From NCBI GenBank assembly GCA_951406725.2, contig OX597831.1:59210001-59274000 (forward strand): 64,000 nt of DNA, in the 5' to 3' direction. Shown here in pieces: positions 2,971 to 62,559 of this stretch. A program made the translations under genes and the position numbers. The notes below the pieces were generated by a model. That model was not told the DNA's origin and ran no database searches. It saw only the letters and a list, made by a program, of their open reading frames with translations. The number at the start of each line of letters is the position of its first letter. Within the stretch, counting starts at the first letter, position 1. Origin of the DNA: Octopus vulgaris. Taxonomy: Eukaryota.

Positions 2971-3517
<547 letters not shown>

Positions 3518-3530
3518 GTTTAAATATTTG

Positions 3531-4018
3531 TTGTGCAAGATTTTTTATGTGAAGTCGTGTGTTGAAACAGATATTGTTATATTTCGGAATGGTCATATTG
3601 CCAGTTTAGCCAATAAAAACACACGCACTATATATTTGGTGTTATTTTTTGCTTCAGTGATATTTATTTTTTACATTAATCTTAATCTTATTTCGGCCAA
3701 AGTTCTTTCGTCACACTCCTGTGACCGCATCAGTGGTCCTTTGTTTTCTTCTCACTTACTTGTGTCTCTCCTTACTAACCGTCAGCCATTTTGTATTTCT
3801 ATTGTCTGACGGTTAGTAAGGAGAGACACAAGTAAGTGAGAAGAAAACAAAGGATCACTGATGCGGTCACAGGAGTGTGACGAAAGAACTTTGGCCGAAA
3901 TAAGATTAAGATTAATGTAAAAAATAAATATCACTGAAGCAAAATAACACCAAATATATAGTGCGTGTGTTTTTATTGGCTAAACTGGCAATATGACCAT
4001 TCCGAAATATAACAATAT
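3531..4018. mobile_element. Penelope-type pLTR-like repeat (family F) forming a 215-bp inverted repeat, with an HHR-like motif in each arm
   Basis: Arms 3571-3785 and 3806-4018 are near-perfect reverse complements with a 20-nt spacer; CTGATGC-G-GTCAC..GTGAC-GAA motif. Confidence 0.65.
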
Positions 4019-4039
4019 ATATATATATATATATATATA

Positions 4040-4243
4040 GGGAGATGTACTCGCATAGCAAGTAATTTGATCTGAGATCGTGTGCTGAAACGAAAACAAT
4101 TGCAGCGTGGAAGGTGTTTATAAGCCATTTAAGAAACACACAAAAGCCGTTCGATTCACTTCAACATTTAAGTTTAATTTGTCAAAATATTTTCGTCGCT
4201 AAAATCCGCGACCTGTTCACTGACAAAAATCTGTGCTGCATCT
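4040..4243 (-). mobile_element. Penelope-type pLTR-like repeat (family E)
   Basis: Copies at 18583-18788, 52415-52610 and 62250-62545; contains an HHR-like fold. Confidence 0.65.
4179..4226 (-). ncRNA. Minimal type-I hammerhead-like motif, G3-C8 core variant
   Basis: ttgtca-GTGAACA-G-GTCGC(ggatttta)GCGAC-GAA-AATATT-T-tgacaa. Confidence 0.6.
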
Positions 4244-4284
4244 GAAAAAGTAACAGTTAGTTCGTCATATATATGTACGTATGT

Positions 4285-5450
4285 ATGTGTGTATGTATGG
4301 ATACATGTGTTTATGTATGTACGTATGCATGTACGTACATACGCCTGTGTATGCATGTATGTATGTATGTATGTATATATGTATGTGTGTGTATATGCAC
4401 GCGCATACACTCTATAAACATAAAGCTATAAACCTGTAGCGATGGATAGATGTAGAGTGACCACTCATCACAATACTATCAAATTTCAACTTCCTCCGGC
4501 CGAAGCTTGGAAGTGATTTACGACCCTTACTCCCAAAACTATACCCTAAAACCTATTATCAGATCTTTATCTCTATATCACAGAACTTTTGTTTTACTAT
4601 TGTGCGTATGTATGTATGTATGTGCGTATGTATGTATGTATGTATGTATGTATGCGTGTATGTATGTGTGTATGTACATACGTACGCATGCGCGTATGCA
4701 TGTATACGCACACGTATGCGTGTGCCCATGTATGTGTGTGCGTACATGTACGTGCGTATGTACCTGTGTATGCCCATACGTAGGTATGTATGTATGTTTG
4801 TACTCATGTGCTACGTATGTATGTGAGTGTCTAGGAGAATGGGCAGACGTGTCTGTGAGAGTGTGTACATGTGTATGTGTATGTGAACGTATGTCCGTGT
4901 ACTGGCATGTAACGATAACAGGAGATTTCACGGAGTAATGTTCGTTGACGCCACACCTAAGAACGAGCTAAGTAAGGCATTCAAGAAAATCCTGCGCACT
5001 ACGGGCCTAAAAATTAAAGTTGTAGAAAAGACAGGTAGGACAATCAAATCGGCTTTATGCAGATCATATCCATTTGTCAAAGTAATAGTGCAGTATGTTC
5101 GACAAATCCACATGTAAATTGTAAAACCAAGGGCACTGTATTCCAGATTAAGTGCCAGGAGGGAGCTTGCGCGACTAACCTAGAGTCATACATAGGTGAG
5201 ACTTCTAGAAGCATCAATGATAGGTTCAAAGCTTCGGCCGGAGGAAGTTGAAATTTGATAGTATTGTGATGAGTGGTCACTCTACATCTATCCATCGCTA
5301 CAGGTTTATAGCTTTATGTTTATAGAGTGTATGTGCGTGCATATACACACACATACATATATACATACATACATACATACATGCATACACAGGCGTATGT
5401 ACGTACATGTATACGTACATACATACACACATGTATCCATACATACACAC
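4285..5450. repeat. ~225-bp inverted repeats (4285-4508 and 5229-5450) flanking the GIY-YIG fragment
   Basis: Reverse-complement identity with about 3 mismatches, including the degenerate microsatellite part. Confidence 0.9.
4925..5230 (+). mobile_element. Penelope-like element fragment: Cys-rich linker and GIY-YIG endonuclease N-terminus (frameshifted)
   Basis: VMFVDATPKNELSKAFKKILRTTGLKIKVVEKTGRTIKSAL / NCKTKGTVFQIKC..YIGETSRSINDRFK. Confidence 0.8.
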
Positions 5451-5721
5451 ATTGTTATTGGTTGTTATTATTGTTATTGTTGTCTGTAAGGGAGGTAACT
5501 GTTTAGGTTTTGGGTGGGGAAAAATATGTGTACAGAAAGGAGACCGGTTTTAAAAAAAGGGGGCCTTGTTTAGTAGGGGATTTATGTACAGTGATGTAAT
5601 ATGTAAGAATATAAAAATTGGTTATGCGTGCTTATTCAGACGGGTTTTGTATTTTTCAATGAAAAAGTTTCTTTATTTAAGCAAGTGTGCGTATATTTCG
5701 TTATATATTTTTGAAAATGAA

Positions 5722-9202: not shown

Positions 9203-10737
9203 TAAATAAACTTAGATAAACTTAGATATGTTTCGACCAAAGATTGGTCCAGGCCATGTCTAACTTAATAGCACCACCTGATAGGATTATTCGAATATTG
9301 TTTAAGTCAAGTTTTGTTTAAGTCAAGTTTTGTTTTGTTCAAGTAGTGAGTTCTTGTTGGGTTGAGTTGTATCAAGTTTTGTTCAAGTAGTGAGTTCTTG
9401 TTGGGTGAGTTGTATCCAATTATGGGTGGCTTATCTGGTATTCTTTGAAGGAATCTATCCACACTCCGTTTAAAGTTGATGGGATCCTTTTCCTCTTTGA
9501 TCTCCCTCGGGACAATATTAAATAGGGCAGGGCCTGTTGAGGAAAATAAATTATGTTGCAGTGTACATGTATGTTGTGATCTTGAATTGGGCAGGGACGT
9601 ATGGCCCGTGGTCCCAGTCTTAGATGAACCTTGAAGCTAATGTTAAGGTCGTTTGGGCAAAGTTGGCGGTATATTCTCCACATCGTACAGATGATGTACC
9701 GCTCACGGTGACGCTGGAGGGAGTAAAGTTTCAAGGCTTTAAGGCGATCCCAATAATCGAGAGCAGCCATGCCTTCAATTCGTTTAGTGAGTGCCCTCTG
9801 GGGTGACTCAATTCTGGAGATGTTTTGTCTTGTATGGGGAGACCACATTGGGCAGCAGTATTCAAGGTGTGGCCGTACAAAGGAGGAAAAAAGTGGTATG
9901 ATGACACCTTGTTCTCTGGACCGGAAAGTTCTTAAGATCCAGGAAGTCATCCTACGAGCTATATCGACCTTCTTGTTGATGTGTGCACTCCAACTGAGAT
10001 CGTCATCAACAATTACACCCAGGTCTCTGATATTGTTAGAGGCTGTGAGCGGTTCCCCTGAAGGAAGAGAGTATGGTTGTTTTAGTGAGGAATTTCTTCC
10101 AAAATGCATCAGCTCAAATTTTCCCTCATTCAGTTTCATTTTGTTTCTGTCTGCCCATTGACTCACAGCATATAGATCAGACTGGAGTTGAGTTCGGTCT
10201 GCTTCTTCATTGACGATTTGCTGGAGCTTAGTGTCATCAGCAAATATTTTCTCTTTGCAGTAATGTACGACACTGGAAAGGTCGTTTATGTAAATTATGA
10301 AGAGTAGCGGACCCAAAACAGTCCCCTGGGGAACACCGCTGGTGACTTCTACTGAGCTTGAGTGGACTTCATCAACCAGGAAATACTTAATCCAGTGTAG
10401 AACTTATCCACGGATTCCAACATTTGCCAATTTTGAGAGTAGGATATTATGGTCTACCCTGTCGAGCGCTTTACTGAAATCAAGGTATATGATGTCAGAG
10501 TTCGAACCTGTTCCCAAGGCTTTGAGTACATCTTCAATGTGATGTAAGAGCTGTGTTAGACAGCCCCTGCCACAGCGAAAGCCATGCTGATTTGCATTTA
10601 GGAGTTTGTGGGTCTCCAGGAAGTCAGCTATCCTTGATCTTACCACTCTTTCAAACACTTTAATGATGTGGGAGGTGAGTGAGATTGGGCGATAGTTGAC
10701 TGCGAGGGATCTGTTTCCCTGTTTGAAAACCGGGATA
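9203..10737 (-). mobile_element. 5'-truncated CR1-type (Jockey group) LINE: reverse transcriptase pseudogene and 3' UTR
   Basis: NYRPISLTS, QHGF, YLDFSKALDRVDH, SGVPQGTVLGPLLFIIYIND, FADDTK, RDLGV, VRPHLEYC; 3' stem-loop GACCAA-TCT-TTGGTC and (ATCTAAGTTT)2 tail; in-frame stop and deletion near 10380-10405. Confidence 0.92.
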
Positions 10738-11689
10738 GACAGTTGATTTGCACTGTACGATGTCTTACATATACTTGGTCTCGCATTTCATACATTATAA
10801 CTTACCAATGCTGAAGGGAGCGAATTTATCAATTCATTCACATTTTGCGGTAAGCTCAAATAAAATTGTCATTAAAAGTTTTCCCCTTAAACCAGAAAGC
10901 ACGTCATCGAATTACTGAGATGGATGGCAAAAAAGTCTTACTAAAAATGATAGAAAATGAAAATATTGCTTTTAATACAAATTACGTGTCTCAAAACAGA
11001 TTTTGTTCTGTTACTCGAATATGGTCTGCGTATGATAATTGTATATAAAATATTAGTTGCAAAAAAATGTAAAAAATAAAACATTTAGAATTCACAGTAA
11101 TTATTCCATCAATGTCTAAATCCCAAAAGAAGTGAAAAATCAAAATAAGATTAAAATATCGTTCCATCAAATAAGACCAAAATCACGATGAAGCTCAGAA
11201 ACATTCCTGCCACAATTTTCTACATTATAATATGACAAAAACCTACAGTTAGAAATAGGAATATTTTTAATAGCATTTGCACTTAAAAAAAAAAGTCACC
11301 GGTTCTTGAAATTGACGTAAGAGCTGAAATAATGGTGCCCATTAACTGTAATTTCACCTTGAAGAAAAATGCAAGATTGCAATTAACATATAACTAATCT
11401 CATTGATTTGTCACGGTTTTTCAAACCCACTTAGCTGGTGTAGAAAACATAATTACTTGTAATTATGAGAATTGTTTACACTTCAAGGTGATTCTAATTT
11501 ATCATTATGAAGTATCGACTACAAAGTTTTCATATCTATACAGTTTAAAACTAAGTGGAGTAACTAAACTTTTCCTATTTGTGATTTTTATACAAAAATC
11601 TTTAGACTTTTCTTTAATATACTATGAATACAAATTCTTCGCCTTCTCACGTTCTAGACCATTATAATTCATATAATATTGCGTTGTTT

Positions 11690-13904: not shown

Positions 13905-14485
13905 TTTCTCATTTCAGTTGCCTCAACTTCTGGAGCGACATTAGTGAAAGGTATGGTCGAGCACTCTTCTGAAGTGTGATTGGTCCTCTTCTGTTGTCCA
14001 GTCATGGACGGATTAGTAGCGGTTTTTCTTTTATTTTGACAATTTCATGGCAACATGTTTTAACAGTAATGGTTTTTCCGGATTTTAAATAGTTATAACG
14101 GAAAAATCCAGCAGTACACCACCAAACAGTCACCATAACTTTCTTTTTGAAGTGCTCTGCTTTATGGAAGGTTTCCGGTGCTTCATTTTGATCCAGCCAC
14201 TGCGAAGAACGTTTGATATTATTGTACAGCATCCACTTTTCATCGGAAGTTAAAATACAATCGAGAAATGGATCGGTCAATGTACGGAGGAGAAGCGATA
14301 CGCAAATTACATATCTGCGCATTTTCTGAATTTCATTCAAATCGTGTGTTACTCATTTGTCCAGCATTTTTTTGATTTTCCATTACTATGCAAATGGTTT
14401 CAGTCAGTTTTCTGGCTAACGTGAAGGAATGTTGCTAGTTCTCGGGTGGTTTTACGTGGATCTTTCTCAATGACGGTTTTGAATT
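13905..14485 (-). mobile_element. mariner transposase pseudogene fragment
   Basis: DPRKTTRELA...FLDCILTSDEKWMLYNN...KKVMVTVWW...KSGKTIT...SARP. Confidence 0.9.
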
Positions 14486-18534: not shown

Positions 18535-18582
18535 ATAATAATAATAATAATAATAATAGTAATGATATTAATTATTATTAAA

Positions 18583-18788
18583 CAGTTGCAGCGTGGAAGG
18601 TGTTTGTAAGCCATTTAAGAAACACACAAAAGCCGTTCGATTCACTTTAACATTTAAGTTTAATTTGTCAAAATATTTTCGTCGCTAAAATCCGCGACCT
18701 GTTCACTGACAAAAATCCGCGCAGCAATTGTTTTCGTTCCAGCACACGATCTCAGATCAAATCACTTGCTATGCGAGTACATCTCCGT
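18583..18788. mobile_element. pLTR-like family E copy with an inverted terminal segment; G3-C8 HHR motif at 18665-18712 (-)
   Basis: Near-identical to 4097-4230; segment 18724-18788 is the reverse complement of 4040-4104. Confidence 0.75.
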
Positions 18789-18789
18789 A

Positions 18790-28553: not shown

Positions 28554-28618
28554 CCATGTACTAACTTAGTTTCAGCTGTTATTTTCCGCAAGGAAAACTG
28601 CAGCCATCATCAGCATGG
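28554..28618 (-). ncRNA. Type-I hammerhead ribozyme in a Penelope pLTR-like segment
   Basis: ccatg-CTGATGA-T-GGCTG..TTTTCC(ttgc)GGAAAA..CAGCT-GAA-ACTAAGTTAGT-A-catgg. Confidence 0.75.
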
Positions 28619-28856
28619 TCCGTTGTAAATGTAATTTGCTGGACTAGATGCAAACACGATACCGAAATATCCCGTGCATGGAGTTCAGCCTATTACATTT
28701 GAATATATCTTTCAAATGCCTTTACTTTGGCGCGTTGAAACCCGAGAAAACTAGCCTGCAGCTAATAATTAGCAGCAGTTAATTTATCGGTTAGAGAACA
28801 TATTTATTTATATAAAATTAATTAAGGGTAGAAATTGATATTTATCAATTAAGACC

Positions 28857-52303: not shown

Positions 52304-52414
52304 CATATATACATATACACACACACACATATATATATTCGTATACATGTGCACACATGCACACACATTACACTCACATACCGTAAGTGTATCGTATATC
52401 TGAAAAAGAAGAAG

Positions 52415-52610
52415 CACGAAATTTTGTCAGTGAACAGGTCGTGGTTTCGGTGCGACGAAATTATTTTGACAAGTTCAATTTAAATTTTGAAGTGAACCTA
52501 ATGGTTTTTTGTATATTTTTAAATGGGTTATAATCACCTTCCATGCTGTAATTGTTTCTATTTTAGCACACGTTCTCAGAACAGGTCATTTGCTATGCAA
52601 GTATATCTCT
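52415..52610 (+). mobile_element. pLTR-like family E, diverged copy; G3-C8 HHR motif at 52424-52472
   Basis: ttgtca-GTGAACA-G-GTCGT..GCGAC-GAA-ATTATT-T-tgacaa. Confidence 0.7.
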
Positions 52611-52620
52611 GTTTTGCAAG

Positions 52621-57884: not shown

Positions 57885-58451
57885 AGATTGTAGTGTAAAT
57901 AGTAGTATTACTAATCACTATCAGATTCTTTATAATAATACATAGATAAGGAAGTTATCGATGAAAGTAAAACGGTGAGTAATTGTGCAACTATTAATAT
58001 TGCCAGTAACAGTTCTGTGGTAAATATTAATAATAATGATAATACTGATAAATTTGCAAACAATAATTTTACTGAAATGTACGGTAATAAGAAGATAAAA
58101 ACACAACCGAGAATACTGAGGAAGCATAGCAATTCCGATGCACTCGATTGAAGATTGAAGCATGGAAGTATAAATACGGCAAAAGGAAAAGACGACTAAA
58201 CTTACGTAATTATGACGTCATCTGGTTTAATCTACTTTGGAAGGTTATTACAGCACATTCTAGAAAGTTATTTGCCTAAATAATAAATATAAGCCTCTCT
58301 TTACTACACGTGGTGTGTTTGATTTCATATTGAACTTTTACTGACCGAGTTAGAATATTAGTGGGTATAACTAGGCCTAATAACAACATAGCCCATAATA
58401 ATAACAATGATAATAATAAAAATGATAATGATGATGATAATGATGATGTTA

Positions 58452-58526
<75 letters not shown>

Positions 58527-58529
<3 letters not shown>

Positions 58530-60626
58530 GACGAAAACAACCTGTTTCAAGAAGAGCAGAAAGGATGCTGCAAAGGCTCATATGGCTGTAAAGATCAACT
58601 AATGATTAATAAAGCCATAACTGAAGACAGCCACAGAAAGAAGAAAGGCCTCAGTATGGCCTGGATCGATTACAAAAAGGCGTTTGATAGCATCCCCCAC
58701 ACATGGATCCTCGAAACACTAGCCGTTATCAAAGTAGCACCAACCCTTATAAAATTCATAGGGCACTCTATGAATAAATGGCAAACCGTGCTACAGCTCC
58801 AAACAAAAGAAGGACTCATGAAAACCAAAGCCATCCCCATTAGAAGAGGAATATTCCAGGGATACACGCTCTCTCCACTCCTTTTCTGCTTTGCACTGTC
58901 ACCTCTATCTGATATGCTAAATAGAACTAGATGCGGATATAAATGTTACGGCAAAACGATCAGCCACCTTTTATATATGGATGACCTAAAACTATACGCT
59001 GCAAATGACAGACAGCTGGAAACACTATTAAAGACAGTTCATGGATTTACCAAAGAAATAGAAATGAAGTTTGGATTAGAAAAATGCGCCAAAGTAACCA
59101 TGAAAAGAGGAAAACTAGTTCAGAGTAGTAACATCACACTAGATAAAACCAATGAAATAAAAGAATTAGACCAAAGCCAAACTTACAAATACTTAGGAAT
59201 CCATGAACTAGATAAGACACAACACACAAATGTAAGAGAAAATAAAAAAGAATATTATAGACGAGTTAGATCAATACTAAAAACAGAGCTCAATGCTAAA
59301 AACAAGATAATAGGTATTAACACTTTAGCTGTCCCAGTTATAAGTTACAGCTACAATATCCTTAACTGGACACTAAATGAACTGACCATAATAGATAGGA
59401 AAACAAGAAAAATAATGACAGGGTCTAGGATGCATCACCAAAATCTGACATAGAAAGACTATATATACAACGTATAGAAGGTGGTAGAGGCCTTATACAG
59501 CTGGAAACTACTATAAAATAACCACCATAGGACTGCAAAAATATCTACTTCAGAAGGAAGGAAAACTGATACAAATAGCGGCAAAACACGAGCAAAACAA
59601 AAAACTGTTCTCAGTATTTAAGGAAGCTGACAAATACAAACAAGAAATCATACCACCCAATAAATATGAAGAAGAAGAAGAAGAAAACAAAGAAACAACA
59701 AAAGCTATAAAACAAATGAAATCCAAACTAAAAACAGAACAGCAACGAACCATGATAAAACGATGGCAAGAAAAGCCCCTTCATGGTAAATACTGGACTA
59801 AACTAAACGCAAAAGAAATAGACAAAGAAAAAATCCCAGCAATGGTTGAGAAGCTCAGGACTCAAAGCAGAGACAGAGGGATTTTTAATTGCAGCACAAG
59901 ACCAAAGCCTCCCCACCAGAAATTACCAAAGACATATAATGAAAAGAAATATAACAAGTAACTGCAGAATATGTGGACATGGACAAGAAACAATAAATCA
60001 TATTATCTCTGGCTGCCCAGTCCTAGCTAAGAAGGAATATATCCACAGACATGACAAAGTTGGAACCTACATACACTGGAATCTATGCCAACATTATGGA
60101 ATAACAACAGAAAAAAAGATGGTATAGGCACACACCAGAAAAGGTCACAGAAAACAAGAAAGCAACCATACTCTGGGATATGCCGATACCCACAGATAGA
60201 GAAATTAAGGCCAACAGACCAGATACAGTTGTCAGAGATCACGAAGAAAAAAATGCTTTCTAATTGATGTATCAATACCGGCAGATGACAACGTGTCTCT
60301 AAAAGAAATGGAGAAACTTTCAAAATACAAAGACCTGGAAATAGAGGTAACCAGAATGTGGAATCTAAAAACAGAAACAATTCCTATCATAGTAGGTGCA
60401 TTAGGCATGATAAAAAAATATTCAGACAAATACATAACAAAAACACCAGGACTTACAAACACATATAACATACAGAAAATTGCACTACTAGGCACTGCAC
60501 ACATCCTACGCAGAACACTTTACATACAATAACCATCAGAGCATCACAACAAATCACAGCACATACCTAAGGCACACAGAGCTGCACTCGGTAGTGAAGT
60601 GAAAGCATGATATAAAAATAAAACTA

Positions 60627-62015: not shown

Positions 62016-62249
62016 GATCACGAGATCGATTTCCTGCGGTTCAATTTCTCAAAAAAATTCATTTTTGAAGGAGAGGCGCGATTCTGCATTAGCCCCAATT
62101 TTTCGATATACATAAGACAACGTCTTGATCTCATATGTATTTCATCCATGGAACCTGAATTGCTATTTTTCACAAGGATTGTTGTGGTTTCATTACAATG
62201 TAGCAAATGCAGCTTCGAAGATAGCAGTTGCTGCTTCGAAGATATTTAT

Positions 62250-62545
62250 TAGCCATTCAAAGAGAACAAAAACCGTTAGATTCACATTCGCATTTAATTT
62301 TTAAAGAAAATTGCAGCGTGAAAGATGTTTATAAGCCATTTCAGAACATTTTGAACAATACTTTGACACAAATTATATTTTGAAGTGAATCTATCGCTTT
62401 TGTTTGTTTGTTTATTTTTTTTTTATTTTTTTTTATTTTATTTTTTTAGTTTTTAAATGGTTTACAGTCATCCTCCAGGTGCAATTGCTTTTGTTTCAGC
62501 ACACGATCTCAGATCAAATCACTTGCTTTGCAAGTACATCTCCGT
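62250..62545. mobile_element. Rearranged, diverged pLTR-like family E copy
   Basis: Segments of family E in both orientations; ends with CAGCACACGATCTCAGATCAAATCACTTGCT..GTACATCTCC. Confidence 0.65.
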
Positions 62546-62559
62546 AATTTAATTTTCAT

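What the first reader, a model, noticed from the sequence alone, without database searches (positions are those of the whole stretch)
4179..4226. Multicopy hammerhead with a swapped G3-C8 core pair (GUGAACA instead of CUGANGA)
Seen: three copies (4179-4226 -, 18665-18712 -, 52424-52472 +) have exact type-I minimal HHR geometry: 6-bp stem I ttgtca/tgacaa, 7-nt core, stem II GTCGY/GCGAC, GAA, palindromic AATATT (ATTATT in the diverged copy) and a UUU site. The core reads G3-U-G-A-A-C8-A, and the diverged copy keeps this core while its loop II has changed. Known: C3-G8 is a tertiary Watson-Crick pair, and the double swap can restore some activity. Inference: a natural compensatory variant that CUGANGA-based searches would miss.
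Basis: partly seen in the sequence, partly recalled or inferred. Interest (0 to 1): 0.75.

Follow-up and report, generated by a model that had tools for sequence, protein, structure and literature searches.

The report
Swapped-core hammerhead in a Penelope retrotransposon
A jumping gene with about 7,000 copies in this animal genome carries a small hammerhead-shaped RNA whose two paired core letters are swapped relative to the same RNA in its sister families; it is likely a weak, conditional self-cutter, and it is a natural version of a swap I found in print only as a lab mutant, but cutting is untested.

Summary
The three copies are real and are ends of a Penelope-like retrotransposon (RT + GIY-YIG). 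The motif lies in the pseudo-LTR, 56 nt before the start codon. 7,079 genomic sites read G3..C8, with 0 for the reversed pattern. Two corrections: the core has 8 nt (an extra G before stem II), and copy 3's ATTATT is not a palindrome.

The swap is true covariation. Sister lineages have the same stems with C3-G8. An old and a young G3-C8 lineage agree at 14 of 14 core positions but only 3 of 13 free positions.

Several results argue against strong activity. Of 97 copies, 0 begin at the cut site and 31 begin at a likely capped start 23 nt before G3. G3 is predicted to pair with U17. About 230 copies are G3-G8, and the young sister family has C at position 9.

Best reading: an attenuated, dimer- or protein-dependent hammerhead (0.55). 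Natural U3-A8 and engineered G3-C8 are in print; ten searches found no natural G3-C8, but a key paper (Lünse 2017) was unavailable. The scan noted similar swaps in two other genomes, which I did not check.

The parts
4179..4226 (-). Hammerhead copy 1. Stem I 5' arm 4226-4221; G3 4220; C8 4215; A9 4214; extra G 4213; stem II 4212-4208 with 4199-4195; GAAA 4194-4191; palindrome 4191-4186; U17 4185; predicted cut between 4185 and 4184.
4243..4243 (-). Inferred capped transcription start (A in TC[A]GAT), 23 nt upstream of G3
   Evidence: 31 of 97 copy 5' ends at -61..-56 from the cut; extra 5' G in 22 of 45 copies ending there; inference
4041..4128 (-). Start of the PLE ORF inside the pseudo-LTR (first ATG at 4128, 56 nt 3' of the cut), including the roughly 55-nt optional tail, followed by (TA)n
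   Evidence: the frame continues into the full ORF in L303, L305 and L494
4041..4910 (-). 3' end of the Penelope-like element that carries copy 1
   Evidence: blastn against natural copy L099, 90% over 855 nt
4912..5452 (+). Inverted 5' piece of the same insertion: GIY-YIG-region ORF fragment (4914-5230) and part of the 3' UTR
18665..18712 (-). Hammerhead copy 2 (G3 18706, C8 18701, U17 18671) in a short copy 18580-18726, with an inverted tail at 18716-18789
52424..52472 (+). Hammerhead copy 3 (G3 52430, C8 52435, U17 52466): a decayed mid-age copy (about 52407-52612) with a broken palindrome and a predicted misfold
3465..4018 (.). Inverted pair of ends of the sister PLE family. Each arm has the homologous hammerhead with C3-G8 but C9 (cores at 3733-3726 minus and 3858-3865 plus). 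This is a comparison family, not part of the G3-C8 element.

Best explanation
It is the minimal type-I hammerhead of a Penelope-like retrotransposon whose lineage swapped the core pair from C3-G8 to G3-C8, and it likely works as a slow, conditional self-cutter. Shown: it lies in the pseudo-LTR, 56 nt before the first ATG; a complete unit has two copies 4,261 nt apart; core and stems are kept between lineages while N7 and the loops change. Inferred: transcription starts 23 nt before G3, so efficient cutting would remove the cap from the mRNA. The monomer would stay off, because it has no stable stem III and G3 is predicted to pair with U17. Cutting after U17 would need two motifs to pair through AAUAUU, probably helped by the element's own protein, and would trim read-through tandem transcripts to unit length. 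Reverse transcription uses mostly uncut RNA.
For: PLE context. Covariation: G3-C8 in 6 and C3-G8 in 4 of 10 hand-picked homologues, plus a G-C/A-U change in stem II. Young versus old G3-C8 lineage, commonest letter per column, one 2-nt indel re-registered by hand: core 14 of 14 same; stems 22 of 24 same, the two changes forming one compensatory pair; free positions 3 of 13; flanks 118 of 156 (Fisher p 3e-5 and 0.025). Stem III stays palindromic when shortened from AAUAUU to AAUU. No core variant reaches 5% at 4213-4220 in 4 of 4 laid runs. In a lizard PLE hammerhead, C3G/G8C partly rescues cleavage, cleavage needs the protein, and uncut RNA is the main insertion substrate (PMC11167929).
Against: No cleavage data. 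0 of 97 copies start at the cut and 3 lie within 3 nt of it, though the C3-G8 sister family also shows 0 of 30. G3-U17 pairing probability is 0.63-0.67, and the AAUAUU duplex is only -0.2 kcal/mol. The extra nucleotide is G, against the published H consensus. 244 sites have G8, and 93 of the first 100 are G3-G8, with both arms G8 in 3 of 5 inverted pairs. The young sister family has C9 (18 of 20 cores), so core constraint in these elements is loose.
Confidence: 0.55

Rival explanations
1. It is a hammerhead-derived fold kept for a job other than cutting (protein binding, leader structure, translation control), or a nearly dead relic. The swap keeps the shape but cleavage no longer matters.
For: No copies start at the cut; G3-G8 templates appear to have been copied; the sister family expanded with C9; a predicted G3-U17 trap; cleavage is dispensable for insertion in vitro in another PLE.
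Against: The 3-8 pair is a feature of the active core conformation (PMC3884650 passage), and it was restored and then held across old and young lineages, 14 of 14 core positions.
Confidence: 0.33
2. G3 and its neighbours are fixed by an overlapping DNA signal (internal promoter or splice acceptor), and C8 changed afterwards to rescue the pair, so the swap was forced from outside the ribozyme.
For: The motif lies 24-60 nt behind the inferred start. Penelope has an internal promoter with a downstream element (PMC2377424 passages). TTTTGTCAG ends at G3 and resembles an acceptor. G3 varies less than C8 (251 versus 464 sites).
Against: The distance from the start to G3 differs between lineages (+24 in 86, +23 in 46, +22 in 2 of 134). 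No joint at this site was among those shown (contigs only, list cut). This rival can coexist with the best explanation.
Confidence: 0.1
3. Chance resemblance in an AT-rich repeat, or conservation due to protein coding.
For: Folding z-scores are modest (-1.0 to -2.1) and Rfam finds nothing.
Against: Sister lineages carry a canonical core in the same place and stems. The motif lies upstream of the first ATG, with stops between them and frame-breaking indels between subfamilies.
Confidence: 0.02

Closest known systems
Minimal type-I hammerheads (min-HHR) of metazoan Penelope-like elements (Cervera and de la Peña 2014, PMC4209133)
   Same: pLTR position, one extra nucleotide between A9 and G10.1, G10.1-C11.1, palindromic rudimentary stem III, frequent U17 (about 24 of 56 listed, my count)
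   Different: 0 of 56 motifs in their Fig. S3 have G3; the only 3-8 covariation reported is U3-A8; their extra nucleotide is H in the consensus, here G
Hammerhead of PAc (Poseidon, Anolis; Frangieh 2024, PMC11167929) and its engineered C3G/G8C double mutant
   Same: PLE hammerhead near the ORF start; G3-C8 partly active; uncut RNA used for insertion; two internal reverse-transcription starts give a tail (here short and long 3' ends, 40 and 99)
   Different: There G3-C8 is man-made; here it is the natural state of about 7,000 copies, and the motif is upstream of the ORF rather than overlapping it
Natural U3-A8 core variants (Perreault 2011, PMC3088659; Schistosoma Cercyon PLEs)
   Same: Natural covariation of the 3-8 pair
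   Different: U3-A8 is reached by transitions, with a U3-G8 wobble on the way; G3-C8 needs two transversions through an unpaired state (inference)
Neptune-type EN+ Penelope-like elements (described in PMC8557442)
   Same: Single ORF with YVDD RT, Cys-rich linker and C-terminal GIY-YIG; pLTR tandem; 5' inversions; tail; (TA)n targets
   Different: The clade assignment rests on architecture; no tree with reference PLEs was built

Membership tests
Canonical hammerhead core | C3-U-G-A-N-G8-A9 by letter | tested here: not met
   G3 and C8 in 7,079 sites; no C3 among the first 100 of 244 G8 sites
Canonical hammerhead core | Watson-Crick complementarity of positions 3 and 8 | tested here: met
   G-C in 6 and C-G in 4 of 10 homologues
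Canonical hammerhead core | U4 G5 A6 A9, G12 A13 A14, A15.1-U16.1, H17 | tested here: met
Canonical hammerhead core | Self-cleavage 3' of H17 | not testable with these tools
   Only contigs were available; the genomic proxy shows no ends at the site
Rfam hammerhead models | Match to a curated model | tested here: not met
   No hammerhead hit at E up to 10 on 4100-4260; none among the 150 of 183 rows shown for the window
PLE min-HHR | Located in the pLTR of a PLE | tested here: met
   (L494: two copies 4,261 nt apart around the ORF)
PLE min-HHR | Extra nucleotide between 9 and 10.1 (consensus H) | tested here: inconclusive
   The extra nucleotide is present but is G, as in the C3-G8 sister lineages
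PLE min-HHR | Palindromic stem III | tested here: met
   AAUAUU (young, mid) and AAUU (old); broken in copy 3
PLE min-HHR | Cleavage as a dimer | not testable with these tools
   Cofolding did not give the intermolecular stem III; it cannot model tertiary structure
EN+ Penelope-like element | One ORF with RT then GIY-YIG | tested here: met
   985-aa open frame in L099; GIY-YIG above Pfam cut-off; RT by the YVDD motif and homologue labels; Pfam RVT_1 is only weak, on the sister protein
EN+ Penelope-like element | pLTR tandem, 5' inversions, tail, microsatellite targets | tested here: met
Neptune clade | Phylogenetic placement | not tested
   Cys linker seen; no tree built
Non-LTR retrozyme | Non-coding head-to-tail tandem monomers | tested here: not met
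   Only 5 held loci have two same-strand motifs, 0.4-4.3 kb apart; the motif is tied to an ORF

The most novel reading that the evidence does not exclude
The G3-C8 swap is an adaptive brake. It leaves a hammerhead 23 nt from the cap that cannot decap its own mRNA as a monomer (G3-U17 trap) and fires only in tandem transcripts or when bound by the element's protein. It has arisen repeatedly in Penelope-like elements and forms a class that CUGANGA searches miss.
Probability: 0.2. Interest if true: 0.7.

Novelty: new variant of a known kind. Interest (0 to 1): 0.5.

Why it matters
If it cuts, it is a natural confirmation of the third Watson-Crick version of the 3-8 core pair, and hammerhead searches need a relaxed descriptor; this may bear on PLE families reported to lack hammerheads. 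One genome holds a graded series of homologues (C3-G8-A9, C3-G8-C9, old and young G3-C8, G3-G8). That makes the open question of whether PLEs need hammerhead cleavage at all directly testable. The copy ends also map a likely start site and show that uncut RNA is what gets inserted.

Tried and rejected
Rfam scans gave no hammerhead at these sites. RF00163 on the genome gave 6 unrelated C3-G8 hits from 73 scored candidates.

Searches for unrelated G3-C8 families with other stem II sequences gave counts equal to the reversed controls (250 versus 289; 669 versus 692). One hit led to the old lineage.

I first read GUUGC/GCAAC in the old lineage as covariation and withdrew this; it is CpG decay.

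U17 as a special adaptation to G3 was rejected, because U17 is common in published min-HHRs and in C3-G8 sisters.

The automatic alignment misplaced a 2-nt indel; uncorrected, core versus flank is 13 of 14, p=0.12. One search used wrong columns and was redone.

A splice-acceptor reading of 4243-4241 is disfavoured, because copies ending there share no upstream exon, only an extra G.

No RNA holder was listed, and contigs give no RNA ends, so there is no evidence on expression.

Lünse 2017 and Przybilski and Hammann 2007 could not be read. One supplement of PMC4209133 was not searchable. For PMC8557442 only the metadata file was held, so its hammerhead alignment was not seen.

Full report
Observation. 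The three stretches are at the stated places. Copies 1 and 2 read TTGTCA GTGAACAG GTCGC GGATTTTA GCGAC GAAA ATAT TT TGACAA. The 19-nt G3..C8 pattern occurs 7,079 times in G000, against 0 for the reversed control. Sites with another base at 3 number 251, and with another base at 8, 464.

What it belongs to. [quoted passage not shown] Homologues run to 54% identity. The best hit is labelled Octopus vulgaris and matches this genome's sister family at 99.6%, so the host is probably an octopus. The motif lies about 1 kb after the stop codon, on the sense strand. In tandem units it lies 56 nt before the first ATG. L494 is a complete pLTR-ORF-pLTR unit with two G3-C8 motifs 4,261 nt apart and a frameshifted ORF. 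Copies have 5' inversions, (TA)n flanks and two 3' ends (99 long and 40 short), all Penelope traits (PMC8557442 passages). Window copy 1 has an inverted endonuclease-region fragment at 4914-5230. Neptune is my label from architecture; no tree was built.

Is the swap real covariation? A sister family (46% identical over 194 C-terminal residues) has a hammerhead at the same place, and two copies sit next to copy 1 in the window. Its older lineages read CUGAAGAG or CUGAUGAG with matching stems. L455 has stem I GUCA/UGAC and stem II GUCGCA/UGUGAC behind an endonuclease remnant. In 10 hand-picked homologues, pair 3-8 is G-C in 6 and C-G in 4, and one stem II pair switches G-C to A-U. These reflect few events, not ten. 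Since 0 of 56 published PLE motifs have G3 (PMC4209133 supplement 2, parts 1-2 read), C3-G8 is ancestral and G3-C8 derived (inference).

Is the G3-C8 form under selection? An old lineage of the same pLTR exists, about 75-80% identical to its query. I compared the commonest letter per column in 20 young and 27 old copies; three old copies and one mid-age copy that did not span the motif were left out. After re-registering one 2-nt indel by hand, the core agrees at 14 of 14 positions. Stems agree at 22 of 24, the two differences being one U-A to G-C pair in stem I. Free positions (N7, the extra base, loops) agree at 3 of 13 and flanks at 118 of 156 (Fisher p 3e-5 and 0.025). Uncorrected, the flank test is not significant (p 0.12), and the flank is partly coding. 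Stem III shortens from AAUAUU to AAUU and stays palindromic. Four laid runs show variants of 5% or more in loop II, CpG sites and outer stem I, and none at 4213-4220.

What the copies say about the RNA. I mapped the 5' ends of 97 copies taken from the first 100 of 7,162 places found with an anchor downstream of the motif. None starts at the predicted cut, 3 lie within 3 nt of it, 62 contain the whole motif, and 31 end at -61 to -56, around the A at window 4243. Eight others share one inversion junction and are not independent. Among all held copies ending there, 22 of 45 have an extra G in front (background 30 of 270, p 3e-10); a few could come from inversion microhomology. An untemplated 5' G is read as a cap trace in L1 insertions (PMC9341517 passages). 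I infer a capped start 23 nt before G3, and that inserted copies come from uncut RNA. The sister family also shows no ends at its cut site (0 of 30), so this is not specific to the swap.

Mechanism. The most likely reading is an attenuated hammerhead. Stems I and II fold stably, stem III does not, and G3 is predicted to pair with U17 (0.63-0.67). That would be analogous to the inhibitory C3-G17 pair (PMC3884650 passages). A monomer beside the cap would stay uncut, which protects translation. Two motifs in a read-through tandem transcript could pair through AAUAUU, probably with help from the element's protein, and cut after U17 to give unit-length RNA. All of this is inferred. Its support is a tested PLE hammerhead in which C3G/G8C partly rescues cutting, protein is required, and uncut RNA is the main substrate (PMC11167929, parts 1-2 of 4 read), and the low dimer activity of min-HHRs (PMC4209133, parts 1-2 of 4 read).

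Against. No cleavage was observed. 244 sites have G8, 93 of the first 100 being G3-G8, whereas only 11 of the first 100 non-G3 sites are C3 (my count). The G8 copies examined are mid-age, and both arms carry G8 in 3 of 5 inverted pairs, so unpaired templates were probably copied. The young sister family has C at position 9 (18 of 20). The extra base is G rather than the consensus H. These keep a non-cutting role at about 0.33. An overlapping promoter or splice signal forcing G3 gets about 0.1, because the spacing to the start varies.

Novelty. Natural U3-A8 is published (PMC3088659 passages; PMC4209133), and G3-C8 is known as an engineered rescue (PMC8495972 passage). Ten literature searches (seven aimed at hammerhead core variants or this taxon) showed no natural G3-C8. 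Lünse 2017, a large survey of PLE hammerhead variants, could not be read, nor could the alignment file of PMC8557442, so prior description is not excluded. Hammerhead numbering and the CpG-decay reading rest on my own knowledge. Two unchecked scan notes report similar swaps behind PLE RTs in other genomes. Verdict: a real, well-supported new variant of a known ribozyme, activity untested; interest 0.5.

Noticed in passing
window 3465-4018; L149-L178, L414-L460: The sister PLE family (4,597 matches to a 33-nt anchor) shows a series of cores: older CUGAAGAG and CUGAUGAG, young CUGAUGCG (C at 9), with C17 or U17. The apparent MIR6426 hairpin at 3739-3852 is just its inverted pair.
   Followed up: partly
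window 28560-28620 (-): Another hammerhead candidate with a CUGAUGA core, a long loop II and stem I CCAUG/CAUGG; its family was not traced.
   Followed up: no
L340, L375, L376, L380, L381, L384, L402: Seven of the eight copies ending at -53 share one inversion junction, suggesting a non-autonomous palindromic derivative that amplified on its own.
   Followed up: no
L464-L493: G3-G8 copies are over-represented (244 G8 sites), mid-age, spread over several subtypes; 6 of the first 100 are U3-G8 and none C3-G8. Unexplained.
   Followed up: partly
window 4260-4241 (-): The sequence just upstream of the inferred start looks like a branch point, pyrimidine tract and AG; copy ends favour a start site, but splicing of read-through RNA was not excluded.
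   Followed up: partly
window 62225-62549: Decayed pieces of the same pLTR without the hammerhead.
   Followed up: no
window 9307-10787 (-), 58392-60532 (+), 14002-14352 (-): Two broken LINE-like RT regions and a mariner-like transposase fragment (labels from my reading of the translations, not scanned).
   Followed up: no
L228-L233: Six C3-G8 hammerheads over the RF00163 cut-off elsewhere in the genome, three of one family with a long loop II.
   Followed up: no
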